Of a stretch of DNA of 64,000 nucleotides, positions 12,741 to 64,000 are shown piece by piece. Under the pieces are notes generated by a model. The model did no database searches. It had not been told where the DNA came from and was given only the letters and a program-made list of their open reading frames with translations. The DNA lies in the NCBI RefSeq assembly GCF_036971445.1, contig NC_091482.1, positions 50,592,001 through 50,656,000 of the forward strand, given 5' to 3'. The first letter of the stretch is position 1. Each line of letters begins with the position of its first letter. Position numbers and translations under genes: made by a program. The stretch is from Narcine bancroftii. Lineage: Eukaryota.

Positions 12741-13321
12741 TATGGAGATATGCAATTCCACCACCAGGTCACCAGGGGTCATCCCGGTGACCTTGTATAT
12801 AAAGGAGTCCAGAGCTACAGTCGAGCCTTCCAGGTTCGTCTTGTAGAGAGACAAGACCTCTTAGTGTACATATTAGTTTATTCTTCTTTCTTTGGCTTGG
12901 CTTCGCGGACGAAGATTTATGGAGGGGTAATGTCCACATCAGCTGCAGGCTCGTTGGTGGCTGACAAGTCCGATGCGGGACAGGCAGACACAGTTGCAGC
13001 GGTTGCAGGGGAAAATTGGTGGGTTGGGGTTGGGTGTTGGGTTTTTCCTCCTTTGTCTTTTGTCAGTGAGGTGGGCTTTGCGGTCTTCTTCAAAGGAGGT
13101 TGCTGCCCGCCGAACTGTGAGGCGCCAAGATGCACGGTTTGAGGCGATATCAGCCCACTGGCGGTGGTCAATGTGGCAGGCACCAAGAGATTTCTTAAGG
13201 CAGTCCTTGTACCTCTTCTTTGGTGCTCCTCTGTCTTGGTGGCCAGTGGAGAGCTCGCCATATAATACGATCTTATTAAAGCTGTCATACTCGCACTGCT
13301 GGTGTGGTTATTGTCAGTACA
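12741..13321 (+). mobile_element. Short solo LTR split by an RTE insertion
   Basis: Flanked by 5-bp direct repeat ACTAG (12736-12740, 13322-13326); ends ...GTACA; TATA-like TATATAAA near 12796; ATTAAA signal at the RTE junction. Confidence 0.6.
12881..13274 (-). mobile_element. RTE LINE 3' fragment (AviRTE-like)
   Basis: Near-identical reverse complement of about 13955-14333, with a (GAA)n tail at 12881. Confidence 0.85.
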
Positions 13322-13873: not shown

Positions 13874-14333
13874 AGATGCTGTCGATCCACGCTGATGAAG
13901 ATCAAACTGCGCTGGGTAGGTCACGTCTCCAGAATGGAGGACCATCGCCTTCCCAAGATCGTGTTATATGGCGAGCTCTCCACTGGCCACCGAGACAGAG
14001 GTGCACCAAAGAAGAGGTACAAGGACTGCCTAAAGAAAGCTCTTGGTGCCTGCCACATTGACCACTGCCAGTGGGCTGATCTCGCCTCCAACCGTGCATC
14101 TTGGCGCCTCACAGTTCGGCGGGCAGCAACCTCCTTTGAAGAAGACCGTAGAGCCCACCTCACTGTCAAAAGACAAAGGAGGAAAAACCCAACACCAAAC
14201 CCCAACCCACCAATTTTCCCTTGCAACCGTGTCTGCCTGTCCCGCATCGGACTTGTCAGCTATAAAGGAGCCTGCAGCTGACGTGGACATTACCCCTCCA
14301 TAAATCTTCGTCTGCAAAGCCAAGCCAAAGAAG
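13874..14333 (+). mobile_element. RTE LINE 3' fragment (AviRTE-like) with 7-bp TSD
   Basis: LRWVGHVSRMEDHRLPKIVLYGELSTGHRDRGAPKKRYKD...CLSRIGLVS RTE C-terminus. TSD ACATACA at 13867-13873 and 14334-14340. Inserted in a Rex1-type 3' tail (about 13845-14490). Confidence 0.88.
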
Positions 14334-14689: not shown

Positions 14690-15575
14690 TATAACCACTT
14701 ACAGCACAGAACAGGCCAGTTCGGCCCTACTAGTCCATGCTGTAGCAAATCCCCACCCTCCTAGTCCCACTGATCAGCACCCGGTCCATACCCCTCTAGT
14801 CTGTTAGGTCTGCTTTGTTCATGAATGAGTGAGACAAACACCAGGCTGAGTCGAAATTAGGGTTCTTTGTTCTTTATTACCGGATTGTAACACTTGCGAC
14901 TAAACATGTTAGTCGGAGAATGCATTCTGCCGTTATCAGCAAAATGGTGATTTTTTATACCCTTGGATATGTGCTTAGAACATCATCATATCATTACTTG
15001 TCCAATGACTAAAACTGTTGCTATCCTTTCCCTGCTAGCTTCCTGCCTCTCAATCCATCAATGTCTCTCTTATCTTGTAAGTACAAGGATGCATTCACAT
15101 CTTGTTACAGCCCTGTACATTCCCATCTCATGATGTTTTACCTAACAGGAGTACAAGGACACCTCCCCTTCTTGTTACTGCCCTGTACAGGGTAACTCCC
15201 TACACATTCCCATCTCATGATGTTTTACCTTACAAGTCCCCTCCTATCCATGTAAAGATCCAGTTTTTCCTTAAATGTAACCAATGATCCCGCCTCGACC
15301 ACGTCTGCCGGAAGCTCATTCCACATCCCCACCACCCTCTGCGTAAAGAAATTTCCCCTCATGTTCCCCTTATAATTTTCCCCCTTCAATCTTAAACCAT
15401 GTCCTCTAGTTTGAATCTCCCCCACTCTTAATTGAAAAAGCCCATCCACATTTACTCTGTCTGTCCCTTTTAAAATCTTAAACACCTCGATCAAGTCCCC
15501 TCTCAATCTTCTACGCTCCAGAGAAAAAAGCCCCAGTCTGCACAACCTTTCCCTGTAACTCAGACCCTGAAATCC
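14690..15575 (-). mobile_element. CR1 LINE 3' end interrupted by a solo LTR
   Basis: LGLFSLERRRLRGDLIEVFKILKG...TRGHGLRL...FFTQRVVGMWNELP, the CR1 ORF2 C-terminus; (GGTTATAT) tail near 14685. Confidence 0.9.
14802..15234 (-). mobile_element. Solo LTR (433 bp), copy A
   Basis: TG...CA termini; 4-bp TSD AGTC (14798-14801, 15235-15238); TATA and AATAAA on the minus strand; near-identical to 53422-53854. Confidence 0.9.
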
Positions 15576-19979: not shown

Positions 19980-21887
19980 CAGGGGTGTCAAACTCAAATT
20001 CACAGAGGGCCAAAATTAAAAACTTGGACTAAGTCGAGGGCCGAACTAAATATTTATTGAAAATTTTCAACAACATCTGCATGTTTTCTCTTCTTTCAAC
20101 ATATGTAATATTAAACTTTTTCTTATTAAAATAAATGTTTAATAATAGTTTAGGATAAACTCTTTCCAGAAGCATTAACAAATGAGAAATAAAATATTCA
20201 ATAAATAATATTTCTCTGTAGAGGATTTGTCAAATGTTGCTAGTGTGCTGTCGAATAGTAAAATCTGAGGGCTATTGAGAATGTGGGAGAATAACATGAT
20301 TCCTGAAACAATCAAATGGGTGACTGATTGTGGGCATGGACTCTAGCAGGGTTATTTGCCATGCCCTTTTTCCATTGGTACAGATATCCTTTGATTTACA
20401 CACTTTTCAAGTTTTATGCCTAATGAGCTTGTATCCAGGTTCAGGATCATTTTTAACCAGGAATATATTTATCACTGTGACATGAAACTACTGGAAGATC
20501 ATTTTATCCTGAGATTAAAGTTCATAATACTTACTCAGGCCTGTGTGCGGGAGGGCGGGGTTTGCGGGCGATTGGGTTGGACAACGACAGTGCGAGGGGC
20601 ATCGGTTCTCGCTGCAGGGCGGCATCTTGGCGGATCAGCGGCCCCGTCACCGTGAGTCGCGGGTCGGCCTGCGGCAGGGAGGGGGAGTGGGCAATGGTCC
20701 TGGCGAGGTCAGGCCCCCCCTGAGTTTCTGCCGGACCCCCCTTGACCTGCTGAGTTTCTCCCGGACCCCCCTTGACCTGCTGAGTTTCTCCCAGACCCCA
20801 ATTGACCTGCTGAGTTTCTCCCGGACCCCCTCCCCTTGACCTTCTGAGTTTCTCCCGAACCCCTCCCCCTTGACCTGCTGAGTTTCTCCCGGACCCCCTC
20901 CTCTTGACCTTCTGAGTTTCTCCCGGAACCCTCCCCCTTGATCTGATGAGTTTCTCCCGGACCCCCCTTGACCTGCTGAGTTTCTCCCGGACCCCCCTTG
21001 ACCTGCTGAGTTTCTCCCGGATCCCCTTCCCTTGACCTTCTGAGTTTCTCCCGGACCCCTCCCCCTTGAACTGCTGAGTTTCTCTCGGACCCCCCTTTGA
21101 CCTGCTGAGTTTCTCCTGGACCCCCCTTGACCTGCTGAGTTTCTCCCGGACCTCCCTTGACCTGCTGAGTTTCTCCCGGACCCCCCTTGACCTGCTGAGT
21201 TTCTCCCGGACCTCCCTTGACCTGCTGAGTTTCTCCCAGACCCCCCTTGACCTGCTGAGTTTCTCCCGGACCCCCTTTTCTTTCCGTGCCGGTGTCCCAG
21301 GACCTTTCCAGGGCAGTCTCCGCGCTCAGGACCGCGCTGGGATCCCGGTCAGTGGTAGAGGAGCAGGTGAGCGCGGCTAATCCCGATCCAGCCCACGCCA
21401 CTCTCGAGATTGGCAGGGGGTTCCACCCTACCTGCCCGACCAGCCTCGCTCTCCACGTGTATTCCGGGCACCCGCCGCTGGTCCGGTGGGAAGGCGCAGA
21501 GCGGTCGGCGGCCGGCGCCCCCATCGCCCGGCGGGGAGCCTTAATCTTCCCTCCGGCATCCCGACTCCATCTGCAGCTCCAAGAAACGATGTTCCACTGG
21601 GGTTCCCGGTGATGGGAAGCGGCCTTGGCTTTCCCTGACACCGGCCAGGCCGCGCTGCGGTGGGCGGGGGGACACGACAGCGTGTTTATAAAACCACCCA
21701 CCACTACTTTTCAAGGACCAGGATTTTTCTCTCTCTCACCCTGGGACACAGTGGTTACTGTGCATGCGCTATACTGGCGCGGCGGCCAGCGGGCCACCTC
21801 TAGTACATTTTTGATATGATCTTGCGGGTCAAATATAATTATATCGCGGGCCAAATTTGGCCCACGGGCCAGAGTTTGACATGTGTG
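19980..21887. mobile_element. Non-autonomous hAT element with captured cargo (Pack-TIR-like), copy 1
   Basis: Termini CAGGGGTGTCAAACTC ... GAGTTTGACATGTGTG; 8-bp TSD CTGTAGGT (19972-19979) / CTGCAGGT (21888-21895); ends shared with 55830-57006. Confidence 0.85.
20714..21275. repeat. Minisatellite, about 18 units of about 30-35 bp
   Basis: Consensus CCCCCCTTGACCTGCTGAGTTTCTCCCGGA in direct tandem with no unique spacers. Confidence 0.95.
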
Positions 21888-42189: not shown

Positions 42190-42822
42190 TCTCAGTAGGG
42201 AACGGAGGGATCTGGGAATGCAGATATTGTACATGATTCCATGAAAGTTGAATCACAGGTAGATAGGGTTGTAATGGGAGGTTTTGACATATTCATAAAT
42301 CAAAGTATTGAGAATAGGATTTGGGATGCTATGGTAAAGTTGTGTAAGACATTGTTTTAGTCACTTTGCTACAGGGAAGATATCAATAAGTTTGAAAGAT
42401 TGTAGAGAAGATTTACTAGGATGTTTCCAGGACTTCAAGAACTGAGTTACAGGGAAAGGTTAAACAGGTATGGACTTTATTCCCTAGAGATTTGATAGAC
42501 ATATACAAAATTATGAGGGGATGAGACAGAATAAATGAACCAGTCTCTTTTCACTACGGTTAGGAGAGATACAAACCAGAAGACATGGGTTAAATGGGAA
42601 AAGTTTAGGGGGACATCTCACACTGAGAGTAGTGGGAGTGTGGAATGAGTTGCCAGCTGAAGTGGTGAATGCGGGCTCAATTTTAATATTTAAGCAAAAT
42701 TTGGACATGTGCCTGGATGGGAGGGGTACAGAAGGTTATGGACTCAGTGCGACTAGGCATGTTAATCGTTCGGGACAGACAAAATGCCTGCTTTCTGTGC
42801 TGTAATGTTCTATGGTTCTATA
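42190..42822 (+). mobile_element. CR1 LINE 3' fragment
   Basis: AGAAGATTTACTAGGATG and GTGTGGAATGAGTTGCCAG motifs; tail (TTCTATGG) ends about 10 bp from the donor of ADAMTSL3 exon 42833. Confidence 0.75.
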
Positions 42823-42832
42823 AAATCATTAC

Positions 42833-43040
42833 CTCTCCCCATGATGGACTCTCCCATGCTGCACAGGCTTGCAATAAACAATCCTCCTCAGAGGGTGGTT
42901 GGTCCTTCTCTTCTGAACAAGATGCTGGAGATAATATTCTTAAAGTCCCATTGGCTGTTAACTGCTCACATCTCACTCGGAGTCGACGGATTCCTTTCCC
43001 ACACGAGACCGAACATTCTGATGTTGTGGTTGTAACCCAC
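42833..43040 (-). CDS. ADAMTSL3: ADAMTSL3-like exon (TSP1 repeat)
   Basis: Not in the ORF track. Minus strand catccag|G...GAG|gtaat, 208 nt. Encodes WVTTTTSECSVSCGKGIRRLRVRCEQLTANGTLRILSPASCSEEKDQPPSEEDCLLQACAAWESPSWGE. Phases fit both neighbouring exons. Confidence 0.9.
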
Positions 43041-43328
43041 CTGGATGGGGACAGAAATTCATTTAATTAGGTTGATCTACATACTAAAATGATTTGGTGA
43101 AACTTAAATGGACAGGAGATGGCACTGGCTGTTTAACTACCCAGCCCAGGGTTTTCCAACCCTGAGAAAAGGACCAACATAAGTGAGACTACTGACCGAT
43201 TTTCTTGAAATTGCTCAGTACAAAATACAGGTTCAAACACATTTTTATGTGTTTGACAATTCACCTTCATTAATGTGTAAAATCTGTTCCTCACACTGAG
43301 TTATGGTAGCTTTGAGAAAAGAGGGTAT

Positions 43329-51597: not shown

Positions 51598-52782
51598 TGG
51601 GATAAACTATCAATGACTCGCATCAGACTATCGGTTATGATTAAATAGGCTTTAATCATCATAAACTACAGGCATATCTCACATGTATATGGCCCAGTTC
51701 CAAGACAGGTATTGAGGGAGGGGGGTTTGGCTATAACCGCCTTAATGAGGATTCTCAAGGGAAGAGTTACAGGTACAGGGTGGGCCAACTCATACAGTAC
51801 ATTCATATTAGACAGCACTAAACAGTTACACTCTGGTTCCATTATGGGTTCAGCCTGTTATTCCATTATTCAGTCCGGTGGTCATCTGTCATTGCATAGT
51901 GTTGGCTGTGAGTCAGCTGTTGGGTCCCATGCAGTGCCTTGCGTGACAGGCTGGGTGTCTAGTGGCTGAAAAGAGTTAATGGGGTGGGGGGGGGGGGATA
52001 TGTAGGTTGTTCAGTCTGTAGTTGGGATGGGACCCCGGGTGCCATTAGTGGGGTTGGGTTCCTGAATGTGCTGCCGGTAGTCGTGGGGGGGGTGGGGTAC
52101 TGGCTGGTCAATGTGCCAGGATCCAGATGGAAACGGTGTCTTTCTGTCCATCCTGGTACTTCACATAAGTGTACTGGGGGTTCGCAAGGAGGAGGTGGAC
52201 CTTCTCGACCAGGGATCTGTCGTGGCTTCTGGTGTGTCTCCGAAGTAGGATGGGTCCTGGGGTCATCAGCTAGATTGGCAGTGCGGTTCCCAATGCTAAC
52301 TTCTTGGGGAAGGAAAACAGCCTTTCATGCGGGGTAGCATTTTTAGCAGTACAGAGGAGGGACCTGGTAATGTGGAGCGCCTCTGAGAGGACCTCACCAC
52401 TGGGAAATGGGCAGGCCTTACAACCTGAGGGCTAGGAGGATTGCCCTCCAAACGGTGGCATTTGCCCTCTCCACCTTGCTGTTCCCTTAGGGGTTGTAGC
52501 TGGTGGTCCTGCTTGTGGCTATACCCTTGGCCAGCAGGTACTGGCACAACTCATCACTCATAAAGAAGGACCCTCCCTCCCACCCTGGGCATGCGAACAG
52601 AGTGAACAGGTAGCGCCGTGCCTTGATGGTCACCGCCGTGTTCGTATCTGGGCAGGGGATGGTGAATGGGAAACGTGAGTACTTGTCGACAACGTTGAGA
52701 AAGTACACGTTCCTGTTGGTGGAGGGGAGGGTGCCCTTGACGTCCATACTCAGACATTCAAAAGGGTAGGTGGCTTTAATTA
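51598..52782 (-). mobile_element. Gypsy LTR retrotransposon remnant (integrase plus probable 3' LTR)
   Basis: LIKATYPFECLSMDVKGTLPSTNRNVYFLNVVDKYSRFPF...FMSDELCQYLLAKGIATSRTTSYNP, a DDE integrase core. LTR-like segment at about 51598-51830. Confidence 0.8.
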
Positions 52783-53421
52783 GGCTTCCTCTGGCTGATA
52801 ATAAAACTTGCTTTGGCAAAACTTTAATTTAAATGTCTGGCGATAACTTTTCTGCTTATAAACTTTGCTTCTTTCTCTGTTTGAATTTGAATTCATCTCA
52901 ATTCCAGAATCTGGAATATCTTCTGGACATGAATTGGGACCATTCATTTTACACTCATTATTTACAGCACCCTTTCTCAGTCCAAAGCACAGCTGCTCAA
53001 GGAGAACCAAATGGCTCCCATACCAATCTCAGCCATTCTCAACAGGGCTCTACCACTTCCTCCCCCACCCACCCTGGGGGCCATTAAGTAAAAGCTTTGC
53101 TTTCTTTTCACCTCAGGTAACAAAGTATTTTATGCTTTTATGTAGTCAGTAGAAGTATAGAAACCAAAACTTGGCTGCATCACGGGGAAGGGGGCCCATA
53201 AACTTTGAGCAGAGTCCTAGCTGGGGGGGGGGGGGCATCATTAGGAAAAAGTTGAGAATGGCTGTTTTAAACCACCTTATACAAATGAATGGACTGCCAC
53301 AACTGTCATTCTATTGATCACTTCGCAGATAAGAGACAGTTATGCTTCAATGATAATTATTCTTGCGACTGATCCTCAACTATAATCTCAGATAGGCAAG
53401 ATTCGTATTTATTTTTGCAGG

Positions 53422-53854
53422 TGTAAGGTAAAACATCATGAGATGGGAATGTGTAGGGAGTTACCCTGTACAAGGCTGTAACAAGAAGGGGAGGTGTCCT
53501 TGTACTCCTGTTAGGTAAAACATCATGAGATGGGAATGTACGGGGCAGTAACAAGATGTGAATGCATCCTTGTACTTACAAGATAAGAGAGACATTGATG
53601 GATTGAGAGGCAGGAAGCTAGCAGGGAAAGGATAGCAACAGTTTTAGTCATTGGACAAGTAATGATATGATGATGTTCTAAGCATGTATCCAAGGGTATA
53701 AAAAATCACCATTTTGCTGATAACGGCAGAATGCATTCTCCGACTAACATGTTTAGTCGCAAGTGTTACAATCCGGTAATAAAGAACAAAGAACCCTGAT
53801 TTCGACTCAGCCTGGTATTTGTCTCACTCATTCATGAACAAAGCAGACCTAACA
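53422..53854 (+). mobile_element. Solo LTR (433 bp), copy B
   Basis: TG...CA termini; 4-bp TSD CAGG (53418-53421, 53855-53858); TATAAAA near 53697 and AATAAA near 53778. Confidence 0.9.
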
Positions 53855-54297: not shown

Positions 54298-54506
54298 CAG
54301 TAAAACTCCTGATATCCAGAATTCAAACGACCAGCAGCCTCAAGCAACCGCAAAAAGAATTGCGAAAAAGAAACAGGTAAAAAATAGGGAAGTTCAAAAT
54401 TGGTGCGCCTCACTGTTAGTTTGCCAATCATGCAATGCGCAACTGAAAAATTCACTCCTACGGCATCTACCGATCCCCATGGATGCCGAATACAGGGGCT
54501 TTACTG
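54298..54506. mobile_element. Tigger-type MITE
   Basis: TA|CAGTAAAACTCCTGATATCC ... GAATACAGGGGCTTTACTG|TA. Confidence 0.75.
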
Positions 54507-55829
54507 TATTCACATTGTATCTCATCTTCTTATCCTTCCTTACCAAAATGTGGCATCTTCATGTGAAATATTAGATTATATATTAGGTTCTAAAAAAACA
54601 ATCATATTTTCAAAGTCAAATGAAGAAATGCCTTAAAATTAAGTCATTCATAAGTAAAGTGAGTAGATTGTCAGGCAGTGACATGTTATGAATTTCATCT
54701 GCAATATGATTTCCCTGGCACCCTGAAGCACACCTGCACTGTTATTCACATTAGAGTCGTAGCACGTTTGAAGGCTGCTTTGGAGACTTAAATTTGGGTT
54801 CGAATCTGAAGCTTACAGTGGCTGGAGCTGAGATTATTGCACAAAGCAGACATTGTACAAGAACCTCGAGGGGCATCCAAAGGAATGCTAATAATTTAAC
54901 ATTTTAAATTAGTGCTGCAAAAGAAGCAGAAAAAATACACATGGGTGAAATTATAATCAAGTGTTCAGCATAGGATGCACCTAAGTAGAGAGCTGTTTTT
55001 ACAGAGTTCACCTAACCCTGTTTCAAGTATAAGAAATTTGTTAGCTACAGTATTGTAAAGGCACAGTGTGGATGAGTAGTTACACACATTGCAGAGTAAA
55101 AGATTTGATCAGTGAATTGCATCAAAGCAAGAAAATGCTGACTTAGTGCAGAATAGCACCAAGGAAACAAATGAAGTATTGATTACAGTTCTTCCACTAC
55201 CCTATTGGAAGGATGGCACAGTCAGGATTGACCAGGATGATACTTCGAATTGAGGGCTGCAGTTCTAAGGAGAGGATGGATAAGATAAATGTATTCCCGT
55301 TGAACAGTGCACATGGATTTGCCAGCATTTCCCCGACAAGTCCAGGGCAAAAAAAATCAACCTCAGTCATGCTGGGTTCAGACCCAACTGTAGTGCTGCC
55401 GGAGAGACTCCTCCTCATATCCAGAGAGCTTTCACACTTGCAATCTAATCACTTTACTTATAAACGTCTTCATTTGAAGACATTTCTTCATTTGACATTT
55501 AAAATATGATTTTTTTTTTGAAACCTAATACGTAATTTGATATTTCACATGAAGATGCCAGATTTTGGTAAGGAGGAACAAGAAAATGAGATACAATGTG
55601 AATACAGTAAAGCCCCTGGTATTCGGCATCCATGGGGATCGGTAGATGCCGGAGGAGTGAATTTTCCAGTTGGGTGATTGGCAAACTAACAGGGAGGTTC
55701 ATCAATTTTGAACTTCCCTATTGTTTACCTGTTTCTTTTCCGCAATTATTTTCACGGTTGCTTGAGGCTGCCGGTTGCATGAACACAAAACATGGCCACC
55801 AAGTTTCAGAAAAACTTGAGCATGAAATG

Positions 55830-57006
55830 CAGGGGTGTCAAACTCAAATTCACGGAGGGCCAAAATTAAAAACTTGGACTAAGTCGAGGGCCGAACTAAA
55901 TATTTATTGAAAATTTTCAACAACATCTGCATGTTTTCTCTTCTTTCAACATATGTAATGTTAAACTTTAGGATATAACTTTAGGAGGATAATGTTACAG
56001 GTCAGGAGTAGGTAGCTCAAGTTCACCCTTTGCTTGACCTGAGGGAAACCTATTTGGTCCCTGTGGAGGTGTAGTCAGCATTCACAGGCTGTGTCCATTT
56101 TGGCCTGCATCAGGACTCAGCATTTCCTGCTCATTCCTCAGGCTCTAGGCCTCTATTCACCCTCGACCCACCATCCCTCTACCTGACCAGTCCTTTACCC
56201 AACCTCTACTCACCCCTCACTCCACTCGCTCTGCCTCTACCCACCCCATCCCATACACACCCCTCTACTGCCTCTCCCCTCAACCTGTTCCTCCCTCTAC
56301 CCGTCTCTCACCCTCTAATCACCCCTCCCCTACTCGTCCTGCCCCTCCCCTTTTACCTCTTCACTATCCATCCCTCCTTCTACTCATCCCTCCCTCTAAC
56401 TGCCCCTCGCACCACCATAACTTCCCCTGCTCATTACTCCTCACCTACACCCTCTGCCCACCCCTGCTTACCCACCCACTCAGGCCCAGCACGCTGCCGA
56501 TCAGCCTTTGCGGACAGCCACCATCTCTCTCTCTTCACGTGCAGGGCCGAACCTGCAGTCCCTGGGGTCCGCGCGGGTGCAAGTGCTGAAGGCCGTGGCG
56601 ACCGGGAGAAGTGCGCTCGCGCTGTGGAAGGGCCGTCCGGTGCCAGTCGCGCGGGGCACACGCTGCCCGGGGGCCGTGCGCAGCCTGCCATGCCTGTCGC
56701 GCCGACAGGAAATCACAGGTGCTCGCCCATCCGCCGCACCGCTCGACAGGTGGGAGAAGTGACTGGTTGCGCGGGGAGCCTTCCAACTGGCTTGCCGGCT
56801 GATGACATCAACAGACTTCTCGTGTTACAATTTCTCGTGTTACAATGGGGAAGGATGTGCAATGAAGGGGGAGGATGGTGGGGGTGAGATTACCAAAAAA
56901 CAGCATCGGCTCTCGCTGCAGGGCGGGCCACCTCTAATACATTTTTGAAATGATCTTGCGGGCCAAATATAATATATAGCCCGCAGGCCAGAGTTTGACA
57001 TATGTG
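55830..57006. mobile_element. Non-autonomous hAT element with captured cargo (Pack-TIR-like), copy 2
   Basis: Termini CAGGGGTGTCAAACTC ... GAGTTTGACATATGTG; 8-bp TSD ATGAAATG (55822-55829) / ATCAAATG (57007-57014). Confidence 0.85.
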
Positions 57007-58093
57007 ATCAAATGGATCGAAATTTACCAAAGGGTACAATTCTCTCGACCCAAGCCTTATATTCCACCTCATATCGTTAAGCAGATCATCCAGATTCCTG
57101 TGCTTGTTATGAAACATTGTGTCTGAACTAATTCATCAGTGAGATCCACATTGCAGGAGATCCACTTTGTAACATGGTCCTAGTGTTGCCATTAAACACA
57201 CATCATTATTGACAGAACAGAATACACTTAGTCCTCCATTCAAGCCATTCTTGAATTGCGCATCAAAACCTTTAATATTTACTGGTTTATCTATCACAGA
57301 AGTAATCAAACCATTGCAAAAAATGTTATGTATCCGAGAAGAGAGAAGTGGTTTAGTTATGTTTTACATATAATCAATACAAAGGACTCTTGTATAGATT
57401 AAAAAGAGATGTGCCCCAAATAAGTTGAAAACAAAGGAAGCTAAATTTTTATATTTTCTTTAAGGAGATCATCAATATATTTCAGGAATTGAATCGCTAT
57501 GAAGTGCTGGGGATGGGCATTCTTGATCACAAACAACACTAGACAATTGTTCCAAACACCCTTCAGCTTGCTGAGATTTTAGCCCAGGAAAAGCAGGGTT
57601 AAAACAAGTTGATGTTCAGAAGAAAGGTTTAATTGCATTTTGGGGGGGGGGGGGGGGAGTCCTGAGCACTGGCTGGGTTGACAGAGAGCATTTCAAGGAG
57701 GGGGAGAACGAGTCAAATAGATTCTCAGAAATGGGAAGGATGGCAGAGGCCAGTCCAAAATTAAATCCAGCAGGTTTTGCAGCCTCCCTTCTTTATTCCC
57801 CTCATATTGATTCACTCCATTTCAGAATTAACCGGCTACGGTTCTTTTGACATTCACCTTCATGTATCCTTTACCAAGTTTCATTTTCATGTTGTCATGT
57901 TTAACCATCCCTCTCTTTGGTTATAATATCAGCAACTTGATGCGTTTAATCCTTTTTTGGGGGCACATCTCTTTTTAATCTTTGCTCCTGCCATCTAACT
58001 AAGAATGCAACTCAACTAATTGCCTGGATGTTAACTGATATAGAGTAATGGCACATTAAGGAAAACAAAATGAGATTATTTTTTCTATCTTAC

Positions 58094-58277
58094 CTTGCTG
58101 GACAGTCCAATGTATTGCATGATTCAATTACCAGAGGGGGTTTAGGAAGCTCATAACATGCTGATTCATTCACCCCTTTTCCATTTGCATTTAGGCAGAC
58201 CAGTTTCCTGTAGTGGATTCCAAAGTTGCCACATGTGGTAGTGCAGGCAGCCCAGTCACCAGGTGCCCACATGAAAT
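58094..58277 (-). CDS. ADAMTSL3: ADAMTSL3-like exon (TSP1 repeat)
   Basis: Minus strand gaatag|AT...GCAAG|gtaag, 184 nt. Encodes FMWAPGDWAACTTTCGNFGIHYRKLVCLNANGKGVNESACYELPKPPLVIESCNTLDCPAR, a TSR with ADAMTSL3-like ANG and DCPAR. Confidence 0.9.
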
Positions 58278-59291
58278 CTATTCACACGAAAAAAACACAA
58301 TGATAAGAAGGGATAACTGTTAATGGAATTCATAATCAGTAATGTGTAGCATTAAAACTATATTTTAATAATACATTACATTTTAAACTTAGACATTCAG
58401 GCCCTTTCGGCCGTCAACCCCATGCCCCCAATTGACCTACAACCCAGTAAATATAGTGCAAATGCAAAAATCTAAATATTATATATAAATGAAAAAATAA
58501 ATTTTAATGTATATTATGATTTAAAATTAAATTTTGCAGAGATAAAAGGCTGCTGGAGATGCCATTTAGTCTTTTGTAAGCTGCTTCAAGAAGTTATAAG
58601 TAAAACAAAACCTTGAATGATTTTTAATGGGTGGGGATTCACTTTCAGCTGAGTTCTGGATCTCCCCCACTTACGAATGCATATGAAAGAGCATTGGGGA
58701 TGGATAGGCACTCTTGATGTCCTTTCATGAAAAATGCTCATAAAATTATAACACCAGGAGGAAAAATTTGCATCTTTCTTGTGAAAATTTCATTGTGAAA
58801 TTTGAAATTATGAGACGGAGCGCAGAAAGGAAGGACGAAATTTGACGTCCCTTATCAAATACATTCAATGGAAGGGAAAGGAGCACGGTCCAGTATTCCC
58901 ACTGCCTCATTCAGGAAATTCTCAACAAAAACCAGCAGAGACAAAACTTTTAGATCACGTTAAAAATAGGCTTGTTACATCCATTCTTCTCTGTACAGGT
59001 CAGAAGTCTTATGGGTGACAATTAATATCACAATTCTATTCCAAGTAATTGTGCCTGTCTCAAGATATAGACACTAACTGAATTTATTCTTCAGGCGTAG
59101 GATTTTTGCGTCACTCATATTGTGATATCGAGGCTGGTCTTTTTCAAGTGAAAACGGGTGTCCTTGAAACACTGGTGCTCTCAAACGATTGCCAGGATGG
59201 TTCAGAAGTGGATAGTAGACGTGAGGGAAAGGGATGAAATGGAGGGAGGAGGCATTGGTGGCCTGTGATGGCATTTGGTGGTACAGGTCTG

Positions 59292-59655
59292 CAGGGGCGT
59301 ATCTACACAAAATAGCGCCTATGGCAGGGGTGGCCAGTGCTTCAAAATAAACAGCAACAAGGAGGTTGCACGAGGAATGGCCTTGGTGGCGCCATGTTGA
59401 ACGCTAGGGTGTGGAAGGAGGATGAGTGTACTGAGTGTAAAAGTATATTTTTAATGGGTGGGGTTCACTTTCAGCTGAGTCCTGGACCTCCCCAGTTACG
59501 AATGCCCAGCTTGTGACTACTCACTGCATATGAAAGAGCGTTTGGGATGGATAGGCACTCTTGATGTCCTTTCATGTCCTGCTGACAGCGCTGTGGGGGG
59601 GGGCTTTCTTCAAGTGGTGCCCCCCCCTTCAAGTGGCGCCCCAGGCCTAACCCTG
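59292..59655. mobile_element. Small hAT-type element carrying a copy of nearby sequence
   Basis: CAGGG...CCCTG termini; perfect 8-bp TSD CAGGTCTG (59284-59291, 59656-59663). Confidence 0.8.
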
Positions 59656-61469
59656 CAGGTCTGGGCTTCAGCGATCAGCTAACTCTGAGGTCAGGCTGAT
59701 GGAAGGCCAAGAGACTGTGGTAAAATGTCACTCCAAATTAAGAAAGGCAGGGAATTCATTTCACTCACAAACCTTCCAATATATTGGAAATAGTAGAAGT
59801 TCCACTCCTGCTTTTCACTGATATTTGCCCATTTTACAGACAGTGTCATTGAAAAATCACATGACACCCTTGGAAATATAATCTTTTAATGATGTAACAC
59901 TGAAAAAGCAGTTGCACATTTACATTTCTCAGTGGATGTCCAACAAATAAGAAACATAACCATAAATAAGATCAAATTGCCGGGGTTTTATGGGCCAGAA
60001 TTGCAACGATGAACTGGCTTTACACAATAGACAATTCATTACATTTTCTGGAGCTTCCAGTGTGGCTGTTAGGTGCGATGTTGATTTATTATTGCTCAAA
60101 ATCCTTGCTTGCACCACATATTTGCAGAACGTAGTGAAATTTAGCCATTTTCAGCTGTGGACAATGTACACAGAATAACTGAGTGTTAATGAAATATTTG
60201 ACAGGCCGTAAAAATCGTAAGCAGAAAAAAATGTTGGAAAACTCTCGTCAAAGAGTAATTACTTCTACAGGAGCTAGTATCATATCACCCGACCTGCTGC
60301 TCTTCCCTTCCACCTAAGGGCCTCAACCAGTGTCTTTTTTTTTGGCAGTGTCAATCTTGCTGTTGTGGTTATAAGATTGGGCCTGCAGGACCAGACCAAC
60401 TCAAGCTGGAGGGGTGCATGACATCATCTTGTCCGTGCTCCTCAATCCAATAAACTTTTCTCTTGCCTTATACCCATAATCATGACATAGAGTAAATAAC
60501 TCGAGAGACTGTCTCAGTCACTGATTTACAGGCTCAATGCACAGGGACCTCGTCCTGGGCCGTAACCCGGGCTTTCTGGCGAAGGGTCAAGGAGTTAGAG
60601 GTTTGACACAAGGTCGGAGAGGGAGGGGGGCCACAGGCACGGGGCGGAGCCAGGTAGTCAGGAGAACAGCACAAACTTTCCAAAATTTCAGAACAATTCC
60701 ATTGGCTTCTTTGTTCCTCTTCTGCTTTATGGTTGATTCTTCTGATCGCTCTTGTGTGCTTTGAATTGTAAAGCTTTGAGTGACTTTCTTCAGTTAAAGC
60801 ACACAGAAATGCCAGAGGAACTCAGCTGGTCTCGCAGCATCCAAAGGAGATACAGATATATCACCAATGTTTCGGGCCCGAGCCTCTTGTCTGGGTGCAT
60901 ATGAACAAGAAAGCCTGCAGATGTTTTAGTTTTTGCGATCCCTGCTGCCAGTTGAGAGGACTCTGACTTTCAAAACGACAATACAGAAAGCTGGGGGGGC
61001 AGGGGTTGATTTGAAATCCTCCTCAGGAATTGTCAATGAAGGAACACAAAAATAATCAGCCCAGTGAGAATGTTCTGCTTTTTAGTAAGATCAACATCAA
61101 TCTTGGGCGTCAAGGCCATTTTTCAACCTGATTCTCGTCCCTTGATTGTTCAAAGATCTGTTCATCTTTACCTGAATATATTCTACAAATGTCCTTCCAC
61201 ATATGAAGAATTGCAAAACTCTTTGACTAAAGAACTTCCCTGTTACCTCAGTCTTACAATGCAGACCCACATAAAGTGAATGCAACTGCAAGTCTCTCTC
61301 ACTGCTTCTCTGCAGTTACCATTGTTGTTCTCACTTGTTGGCTCCTCGGGCCGCACCCTGAAAACCGCTTCAGCTAGCGGCCAAAAACAAGTGAGGGGGT
61401 GGTCTCATTACTACGCAACTGGGCGATCATCCCAAGGTGGAGCAGGAGGAAGAGGAGACATCTCCTAAT

Positions 61470-62039: not shown

Positions 62040-62850
62040 AGTTCAAACTTCAGAGTTATTGTCAGAGTACATGCCTGATATTACATACAACCTTGAGATT
62101 CCTTTTCCTGTGGGCAATGCAGAATTACCATATATTGGTAGTTCAAAAACTGTACTCAAGAAGATACATGTAGATATAAACAAATAAAGAAATGGAAGCA
62201 AACAGAGAAAAAAAATCAACAAAGAGCAAAAGTAAGAATCCTTTGAGTTTTAGTTTGCTGTTGAGTAGTCTAGTCTGACGGTGGAGGGGTAGCAGCTGTT
62301 CCTGAACCTGGTGGCGTGAGCCTTGCAGCACCTATACCTCTTTGTTGATGGTAGCAGGGAGAACAGAGCATGTGGTGGATGGTGTGGATCCTTGATGATT
62401 GCTGCTCCTCTCTGACAGATGTTCTCAATGGTGGGGAGGGTTTTGCCTGTGATGTCCTGGCCTGTATCCACTATCTTTTGCAGGGATTTCCACTCAGGGG
62501 TATTGGTGTCCCCATACCAGACCATATTGCAGTTGGTCAGCACACTTTCCACCTCAAATCTGTGGAAATTTGCCAGGGTTTCTGATGTCACACCTAACCT
62601 CCGCAAGCTCCCGAGGAAGTAGAGGCACTTGTGTGCTTTCTTCATGGTGCCCTTTGATGTGTTGGGTCTAGGAAAGATTCTCCGGGATAGTGACTCCTAA
62701 GAAGTTAAAATTTGCTCACCCTCTCCACCTCTGATCCCCCAGTGATGGCTGGATCATACGCCTCTGGTTTTCTCTTCCTGAAGTCAACAATCAGCTCCTT
62801 GATTTTGGTGACATTAAGTGTGAGTGCATCATTCAGCCAAGTTCTCAATC
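62040..62850 (-). mobile_element. Rex1-type LINE 3' fragment
   Basis: LNVTKIKELIVDFRK and KKAHKCLYFLGSLRRLG...IIKDPHHPPHALFSLLPSTKRYR...RFRNSCYP. Confidence 0.85.
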
Positions 62851-63166
62851 TCCCCCCCCTTATGAACCCACTGTAGTGGTATCGTAGTGAATTTGTAAAT
62901 GGTGTTGACATCCGAGCCACACCGTCATAGGTTTATAGCGAGTAGAGCAGGGAGTGAAGGACCTTTCATCAGAGGGCAACCACTGATCCCTCTCTACCAT
63001 TTATTTCAAGAATCAACCTCACGAATATCCTGGACCAACTTCAGAACTAACACTCCATATTATAACTCACCAATGTGGTAGACTCTGAACTCCCTCTTTA
63101 CTTCAGAGGCAATGAGGGATGGACATAAAAAGTGCTGAGATTCCATGAACAAATAAAATTTAAGTA

Positions 63167-63662: not shown

Positions 63663-64000
63663 ATGTTCTTAGCCCCCTGCTCTACTCACCTTACAATGAT
63701 GAGCGAGTGGCTGAGTACGACAATAACACCATCTACAAATTTGCTGATGATACCACTGAAGTGAGTTGTATAAAGAAAGGTGATGAGTCAGCGTATCGGA
63801 AGGAGATTGAAAACTTGGCTGAATGGTGCACTAACAACAACCTTGCACTCAATCTCACTAAGAAGCTGATTGTTGACTTCAGGAAATCTCGAGGTATACG
63901 ATCTAGTGATCATTGGGGGAACAGAGATGAAGAGGGTGAGAAAATTTAAGTTCTTGGGAGTCACTATTGTGGAGGTTCTTTTCTGGTCTTAACATACAAA
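63663..64000 (+). mobile_element. Rex1-type LINE RT fragment (runs off the window)
   Basis: VLSPLLYS...IYKFADDTT...DESAYRKEIENLAEWCTNNNLALN...LIVDFRK. Confidence 0.85.

What the first reader, a model, noticed from the sequence alone, without database searches (positions are those of the whole stretch)
58620..59663. hAT element containing a copy of intronic DNA located about 830 bp away
Seen: 58620-58729 (ATTTTTAATGGGTGGGGATTCACTTTCAGCTGAG...GATGTCCTTTCATG) recurs in direct orientation at 59447-59576, inside a 364-bp element with CAGGG/CCCTG ends and a perfect 8-bp TSD CAGGTCTG. The outer copy has no visible TIRs and lacks about 22 bp bounded by TGC microhomology. Inference: local sequence capture into a TE by gap repair or template switching, with donor and recipient side by side. 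The reverse direction (element to flank) is not excluded.
Basis: partly seen in the sequence, partly recalled or inferred. Interest (0 to 1): 0.7.

Follow-up and report, generated by a model that had tools for sequence, protein, structure and literature searches.

The report
Transposon copy holding duplicated neighbouring DNA
One copy of a common short DNA transposon holds a 130-base piece found elsewhere only about 830 bases away in the same intron; the piece was likely copied in during repair of a DNA break, a known and fairly ordinary event in animal genomes.

Summary
Observation confirmed: a 364-bp element (59292-59655) with a perfect 8-bp target duplication holds a 130-bp segment, 95% identical (103 of 108 aligned bases) to 58620-58729. 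The element's left end is a multi-copy family (127 of 460 laid contigs diverge at 59291-59293). The segment shows only two-copy depth, and four family contigs join both arms without it, one with 38 other letters in its place. The shared tract fills the non-family gap almost exactly, so flank-to-element capture is likely (about 0.75). Against: a 4-bp direct repeat straddles the outer copy (chance 2%), and no orthologue could be laid. The cargo-bearing element is single-copy; nothing shows it ever moved with its cargo. This matches the single-copy Pack-TIRs of Tan et al. 2021 (PMC8277862: 370 cases, 208 hAT, 160 of 281 within 15 kb of the parent, transposition-independent gap filling). A real, clean, new member of a known kind; no function is indicated.

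The parts
58620..58729 (+). Outer copy, likely the donor; 110 bp of intron DNA, lacks the 22 bp present in the inner copy; ATGA direct repeat straddles its ends (58617-58620, 58727-58730)
   Evidence: no contig other than the locus's own adds depth here
59284..59291 (+). Left target-site duplication CAGGTCTG
59292..59655 (.). Non-autonomous hAT-like TIR element, 364 bp (234 bp without the cargo), 5-bp perfect termini
   Evidence: 127 of 460 X1 contigs laid have unrelated loose ends at 59291-59293
59292..59437 (+). Left arm, shared with the multi-copy family; likeness falls off inward
   Evidence: summed depth in X1 2754, 1024, 69 in successive 55-bp bins against 3.5-4.7 for the locus's own contigs
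59447..59576 (+). Inner copy (cargo), 130 bp, absent from the family contigs that join across it
59503..59524 (+). 22 bp present only in the inner copy, bounded by TGC; no template for it elsewhere in the window
   Evidence: longest exact match elsewhere 10 bp; none within 4 mismatches of the 19-bp core
59577..59655 (+). Right arm with two 16-bp subterminal direct repeats (59608-59623, 59627-59642), shared with family contigs from about 59608
   Evidence: D8; joints tables 5 and 5c
59656..59663 (+). Right target-site duplication CAGGTCTG
58094..58277 (-). Host exon (thrombospondin type 1 repeat, ADAMTS/ADAMTSL type); the finding lies in the intron 5' of it
   Evidence: Pfam TSP1_ADAMTS E 5.8e-12; AG/GT ends

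Best explanation
One copy of a short multi-copy DNA transposon holds 130 bp that occur elsewhere only about 830 bp upstream, and this piece was likely copied into the already inserted element during repair of an internal break (template switching, a single-copy Pack-TIR). Shown: the element, its family, the two-copy status of the segment and its absence from family contigs that span the site. Inferred: (1) an element of about 234 bp inserted here and made the 8-bp duplication; (2) later a break near 59446 was repaired by synthesis that switched to the nearby intron and back, with almost no loss of element sequence, possibly through ATG microhomology; (3) the copies drifted about 5% apart and the donor likely lost 22 bp by a TGC-bounded deletion (a 22-bp gain during capture is not excluded); (4) the loaded element did not spread. 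No function is implied.
For: Two-copy status: the locus's own contigs explain all depth in the outer bins (extra 0.0 in 3 of 3 runs of one sample). In bin 59500-59554 the extra fits one 33-bp shared node at depth 10.0, 10.0 and 14.2, about twice the single-copy 4.5, 4.5 and 6.8. Four contigs join left arm to right arm without the segment (59336>59623, 59362>59620, 59367>59620 with unknown filling; 59437>59608 with 38 other letters), each in 3 of 3 organism-A runs. The window has 40 non-cargo letters over that last interval, so the cargo is a near-clean insertion, and the shared tract fills the non-family interval to within about 10 bp on each side; 182 of 49,770 possible tracts (0.4%) inside the element would do so. 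Copy-to-copy divergence is 4.6% (95% interval 1.5-10.5%), while 390 of 460 laid contigs are under 95% alike, in keeping with capture after the family spread. The pattern matches Tan et al. 2021: single copy, parent mostly under 5 kb away, small gap, internal breakpoint.
Against: A 4-bp direct repeat straddles the outer copy's ends (2.2% of comparable local tracts reach 4 or more; inner copy 0), as if the outer copy were the insertion. The model needs a second event for the 22-bp difference. The gap-fit argument rests on one diverged family contig, read by eye on the right side, and the 0.4% window was set after seeing the data. Family likeness already drops about 40-fold before the cargo starts (bin 59390-59444), so most family copies do not test the cargo site. 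No orthologue was laid in organism B and no empty-site allele was seen.
Confidence: 0.75

Rival explanations
1. Element to flank: the element already carried the 130 bp from a source now lost, and a break at 58620 was patched by copying from it, skipping 22 bp at TGC in the same event.
For: ATGA direct repeat at the outer copy's ends (chance 2.2%); a single event explains the 22-bp gap; the outer copy is richer in G+C (0.45) than its flanks (0.28, 0.37).
Against: Needs a third source, but depth fits only two copies and exact cores are absent from metagenome and viral collections. The copied tract would have to match the non-family interval by chance (0.4%). The ATG at the ends could also be the microhomology that set the ends of a capture, since the family contig has ATG at the site (by eye, table 5c).
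Confidence: 0.12
2. Capture coupled to transposition: the segment entered during gap repair after excision, or in a local hop from an adjacent site, so a transposase was involved.
For: Donor and element are under 1 kb apart; local hopping of Ac/Ds-type hAT elements is recalled knowledge; the target duplication is still perfect.
Against: Almost no element sequence is missing at the insertion point (40 against 38 letters) and the break is mid-element, which Tan et al. take as the sign of an internal break. No second loaded copy. No excision footprint was searched for specifically; no second family copy lies in the window.
Confidence: 0.09
3. The segment is ordinary internal sequence of a rare or diverged subfamily and the outer copy is a stray fragment of it.
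For: Contigs under 80% alike, or removed by the tool's filter, are not seen; three of the four arm-joining contigs have unknown filling.
Against: No extra depth over either copy beyond the two-copy node, while 231 of 460 laid contigs are under 90% alike, so diverged copies are detected; one family contig has 38 unrelated letters at the site; 0 of 27 organism-B contigs lie on the segment.
Confidence: 0.04

Closest known systems
Single-copy Pack-TIRs of animals (Tan et al. 2021, PMC8277862)
   Same: TIR-element arms around a short (median 224 bp there, 130 bp here) duplicate of host DNA; single copy (277 of 281 there); parent within 15 kb (160 of 281, mostly under 5 kb); hAT the commonest carrier (208 of 370); small gap in the element and internal breakpoint.
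   Different: No outgroup test here. Cargo is short and would sit just under their BLAT score cut-off (about 95 against 100, formula recalled). Their only cartilaginous fish (elephant shark) had 0 cases, but the host of this window was not identified.
Multicopy Pack-TIRs, Pack-MULEs and Pack-hAT-N8_XT (as described in PMC8277862)
   Same: Host sequence between the ends of a non-autonomous DNA transposon with a target duplication.
   Different: Those are amplified with distinct target duplications and lie far from the parent; this one is single-copy and adjacent.
Filler DNA in Ds elements and P-element gap repair; polymerase-theta templated insertions (recalled; related papers seen only as search listings)
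   Same: Synthesis-dependent repair copies nearby DNA into a break with short microhomologies.
   Different: Those are induced, observed events; here the enzyme and pathway cannot be read from an old locus.

Membership tests
Pack-TIR (criteria of Tan et al. 2021) | Both flanks belong to one TIR element family and reach its termini | tested here: inconclusive
   Left terminus met (127 of 460 contigs break at 59291-59293). Right arm is family sequence from about 59608 to 59647 (joints), but no pile of loose ends at 59655 is among the rows shown; 316 rows were hidden.
Pack-TIR (criteria of Tan et al. 2021) | Internal captured sequence of 100-5000 bp that is not family sequence | tested here: met
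   130 bp; absent from arm-joining family contigs.
Pack-TIR (criteria of Tan et al. 2021) | Unique parental copy, at least 90% identical, length ratio 80-120% | tested here: met
   103 of 108 identical; ratio 130/110 = 118%; two-copy depth.
Pack-TIR (criteria of Tan et al. 2021) | BLAT score of at least 100 (pipeline cut-off) | not tested
   BLAT not run; 103 matches, 5 mismatches and 3 gaps give about 95 by the recalled formula.
Pack-TIR (criteria of Tan et al. 2021) | No TE within 100 bp of the parental copy; cargo not TE-derived | tested here: inconclusive
   No extra depth at 58565-58839; small extra at 58510-58564 in 2 of 3 runs. A weak DNA likeness to a LINE remnant was not backed by a protein profile. 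No repeat library available.
Pack-TIR, gap-filling type | Microhomology at a breakpoint | tested here: inconclusive
   By eye, one family contig has ATG where the cargo ends in ATG (table 5c); no family consensus to test against.
Pack-TIR, gap-filling type | Orthologous element without cargo in an outgroup | not testable with these tools
hAT superfamily (non-autonomous) | 8-bp target-site duplication | tested here: met
hAT superfamily (non-autonomous) | Short terminal inverted repeats starting (C/T)A(A/G)NG (motif recalled) | tested here: inconclusive
   CAGGG fits, but only 5 bp are perfect; other superfamilies with 8-bp duplications are not excluded.
hAT superfamily (non-autonomous) | Autonomous partner with a hAT transposase and the same ends | not testable with these tools
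   No genome held; the element is 364 bp and its only frames of 55 aa or more are 66-109 aa stop-to-stop, not searched.

The most novel reading that the evidence does not exclude
Cargo unloading: the element arrived carrying DNA whose original source is gone from the genome, and then served as template to write that cargo, exactly from one cargo end to the other, into the neighbouring intron between ATGA repeats, so that a Pack-TIR made its own apparent parent. If so, nearby 'parents' of Pack-TIRs can be daughters, and the cis bias used as evidence for gap filling would be partly misread.
Probability: 0.1. Interest if true: 0.55.

Novelty: new member of a known kind. Interest (0 to 1): 0.25.

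Why it matters
It is a clean, compact example of a DNA transposon copy gaining local host DNA, with donor, recipient and an unloaded family relative all visible. Such cases are rare per element (about 2 per 10,000 in Tan et al. 2021) but expected in any repeat-rich animal genome. The cargo is intron DNA with no sign of RNA structure or coding, and the loaded element has not spread, so the biological consequence is likely nil. It would matter more only if the direction proved reversed.

Tried and rejected
Whole-genome search: no genome held. Structured RNA: Rfam gave 2 hits, E 1.2 and 3.6, far below gathering scores; folds of four stretches as DNA had z 0.27 to 1.07; rejected. Donor is a decayed LINE (which would have fixed the direction): the extended outer region scored 175 against one LINE remnant (0 of 1000 shuffles; best of 2478 window tiles, next independent tile 157), but only 95 against the second remnant (512 of 1000 shuffles); with the seed removed the left extension held (1 of 60) and the right did not (31 of 60). 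A profile from 99 related RT proteins found both true remnants (167, 257) but not the outer region (28.6; reached by 6-37% of 1274 tiles; wrong register; hmmsearch best E 0.32). The seed was chosen after the fact; the idea is unsupported and not used. Longer capture starting at a shared GTAAAA upstream of both copies: chance 1047 of 12,795 (8%); not claimed. Local template for the 22 bp: none. Family or cargo in metagenomes or viral contigs: 0 matches each, exact patterns only. Organism B: unique flanks were almost uncovered, which proves nothing; one 151-bp contig is 100% identical at depth 2.2 and may be carry-over. Earlier findings of the scan: none by sequence or place. Literature searches for a hAT capture in sharks (0 papers with all five terms) and Pack-TIR with cartilaginous fish (none of the 12 listed holds a Pack term) found nothing; subscription journals are not covered.

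Full report
1. Observation. 58620-58729 recurs in direct orientation at 59447-59576, starts 827 bp apart, E 1.6e-28 in the window. There are 108 aligned positions with 5 substitutions (4.6%; 95% interval 1.5-10.5%), two single-base gaps and a 22-bp gap bounded by TGC. The inner copy lies in a 364-bp element, 59292-59655, between two copies of CAGGTCTG; such 8-mer repeats at this spacing occur at 4 of 63,600 window positions. The termini are inverted for only 5 bp. No other family copy is in the window. The region is the intron 5' of a minus-strand exon with a TSP1_ADAMTS domain; a second such exon lies near 42821-43066.

2. No genome is held, so I laid whole contig sets of 4 of the 5 listed runs on 58400-60049 at 80% likeness. 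X1, X3 and X4 are one sample that may be the window's source, so they count once; X5 is another organism. 460, 467, 469 and 27 contigs were laid. Summed depth in X1 is 2754, 1024 and 69 over the first three bins of the element, against 3.5-4.7 for the locus's own contigs; 127 of 460 contigs have unrelated loose ends at 59291-59293 (rows shown; 316 rows hidden). The left end is therefore the terminus of a dispersed family, also present in organism B (5 of 27 contigs with loose ends at 59292). The tool warns that depth is no copy number; I use it only as many against one or two. Over the outer copy the locus's own contigs explain the depth fully (extra 0.0). Over the inner copy the extra is 1.39, 1.39 and 0.0 in the first bin, and in the second fits one node for the 33 exactly shared bases at depth 10.0, 10.0 and 14.2, twice the single-copy level (the node itself is inferred from arithmetic and from the one contig per run said to fit two places). 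Four contigs join the left arm to the right arm without the segment; for one (59437>59608) the filling is known, 38 letters, against 170 in the window. Caveat: family likeness has already fallen about 40-fold before the cargo begins, so only a few family copies test the site directly.

3. Direction. For flank to element: the segment has no third source by depth; the shared tract fills the non-family interval (59438 to about 59587, right edge read by eye) to within about 10 bp on both sides, which 182 of 49,770 possible tracts would do (window set afterwards); removing it leaves 40 letters against the relative's 38. Against: ATGA straddles both ends of the outer copy (2.2% by chance), the outer copy is richer in G+C than its flanks, and the 22 bp need a second event. 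The relative has ATG at the insertion point (table 5c, by eye), so the same ATG may have served as microhomology for leaving and returning, which would need one later lost base at the inner left junction; this is a conjecture from one diverged copy. A hoped-for proof, that the donor sits in an old LINE remnant crossing both breakpoints, looked good against one remnant and failed against the second and against an independent protein profile; I do not use it.

4. Mechanism. Shown: family, boundaries, two-copy cargo, unloaded relatives. Inferred: insertion of an element of about 234 bp; later an internal break repaired by synthesis that switched to the intron 830 bp away and back; drift of about 5%; loss of 22 bp in the donor; no later spread. 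The near-zero loss of element sequence, the mid-element break and a copy divergence below that of most laid family contigs (390 of 460 under 95% alike, short alignments) favour repair without a transposase. Confidence 0.75; reverse direction 0.12; capture tied to transposition 0.09; family-standard sequence 0.04.

5. Known systems. Tan et al. 2021 (PMC8277862; I read the abstract, parts 1-3 of 10 of the text, methods section 14, found passages and one search of the supplements) report 370 Pack-TIRs in 100 animal genomes, 208 with hAT, 4 multicopy, 160 of 281 within 15 kb of the parent, microhomology in 190 of 281, median gap 4.6% of the element, and conclude transposition-independent gap filling. 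This locus works like that class and meets the criteria I could test (size, identity, length ratio, unique parent); the right terminus, microhomology and TE-free flanks are inconclusive and the outgroup test is open. hAT membership rests on the 8-bp duplication and the first five bases only. Their elephant shark row shows 0 Pack-TIRs among 242 elements. Other papers were seen only as search listings.

6. Verdict. Real and well supported, but a new member of a known kind with intron cargo, no RNA family or structure, and no spread. Interest 0.25. The boldest reading left, that the element wrote its cargo out into the flank and so made its own apparent parent, has probability about 0.1.

Noticed in passing
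window 57396-57423 and 57954-57981: 28-bp inverted pair, 93% complementary, 530 bp apart, in the next intron; no target duplication seen by eye. May be a second small local templated copy or an old TIR pair.
   Followed up: partly
window 59743-59893: Run X5 (organism B) holds a 151-bp contig 100% identical to unique flank at depth 2.2 while the rest of the flank is uncovered; likely carry-over between samples.
   Followed up: no
window 58536-58785 against 62740-62974: Weak DNA likeness of the outer copy and its flanks to a LINE remnant; not backed by the second remnant or a protein profile.
   Followed up: yes
window 62250-62950 (-) and 63675-63984 (+): Two broken non-LTR retrotransposon RT remnants in opposite orientation, 76% alike over 189 bp; relatives carry PF00078 and mostly PF09004.
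   Followed up: partly
window 59607-59642: Family contigs vary in the number of subterminal 16-19-bp repeats (one has extra units; one high-depth contig lacks 3 bases at 59620), suggesting a variable binding-site array.
   Followed up: no
window 14802-15234 and 53422-53854: 433-bp inverted copies, 98% identical, 38 kb apart: a young repeat.
   Followed up: no
window 12888-13274 / 13955-14332 and 54322-54670 / 55441-55783: Two closely spaced long inverted pairs (387 bp at 92.5%; 350 bp at 87%), possibly long-TIR elements or foldbacks.
   Followed up: no
window 19980-20119 and 55830-55969: 140-bp direct copies, 98.6% identical, 36 kb apart; the second abuts the 54322-55783 inverted pair.
   Followed up: no
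window 52490-52828 (-): Broken integrase core (rve, E 3.9e-7, below the curated cut-off), likely an LTR retroelement remnant.
   Followed up: partly
window 20720-21282: Tandem repeat array.
   Followed up: no
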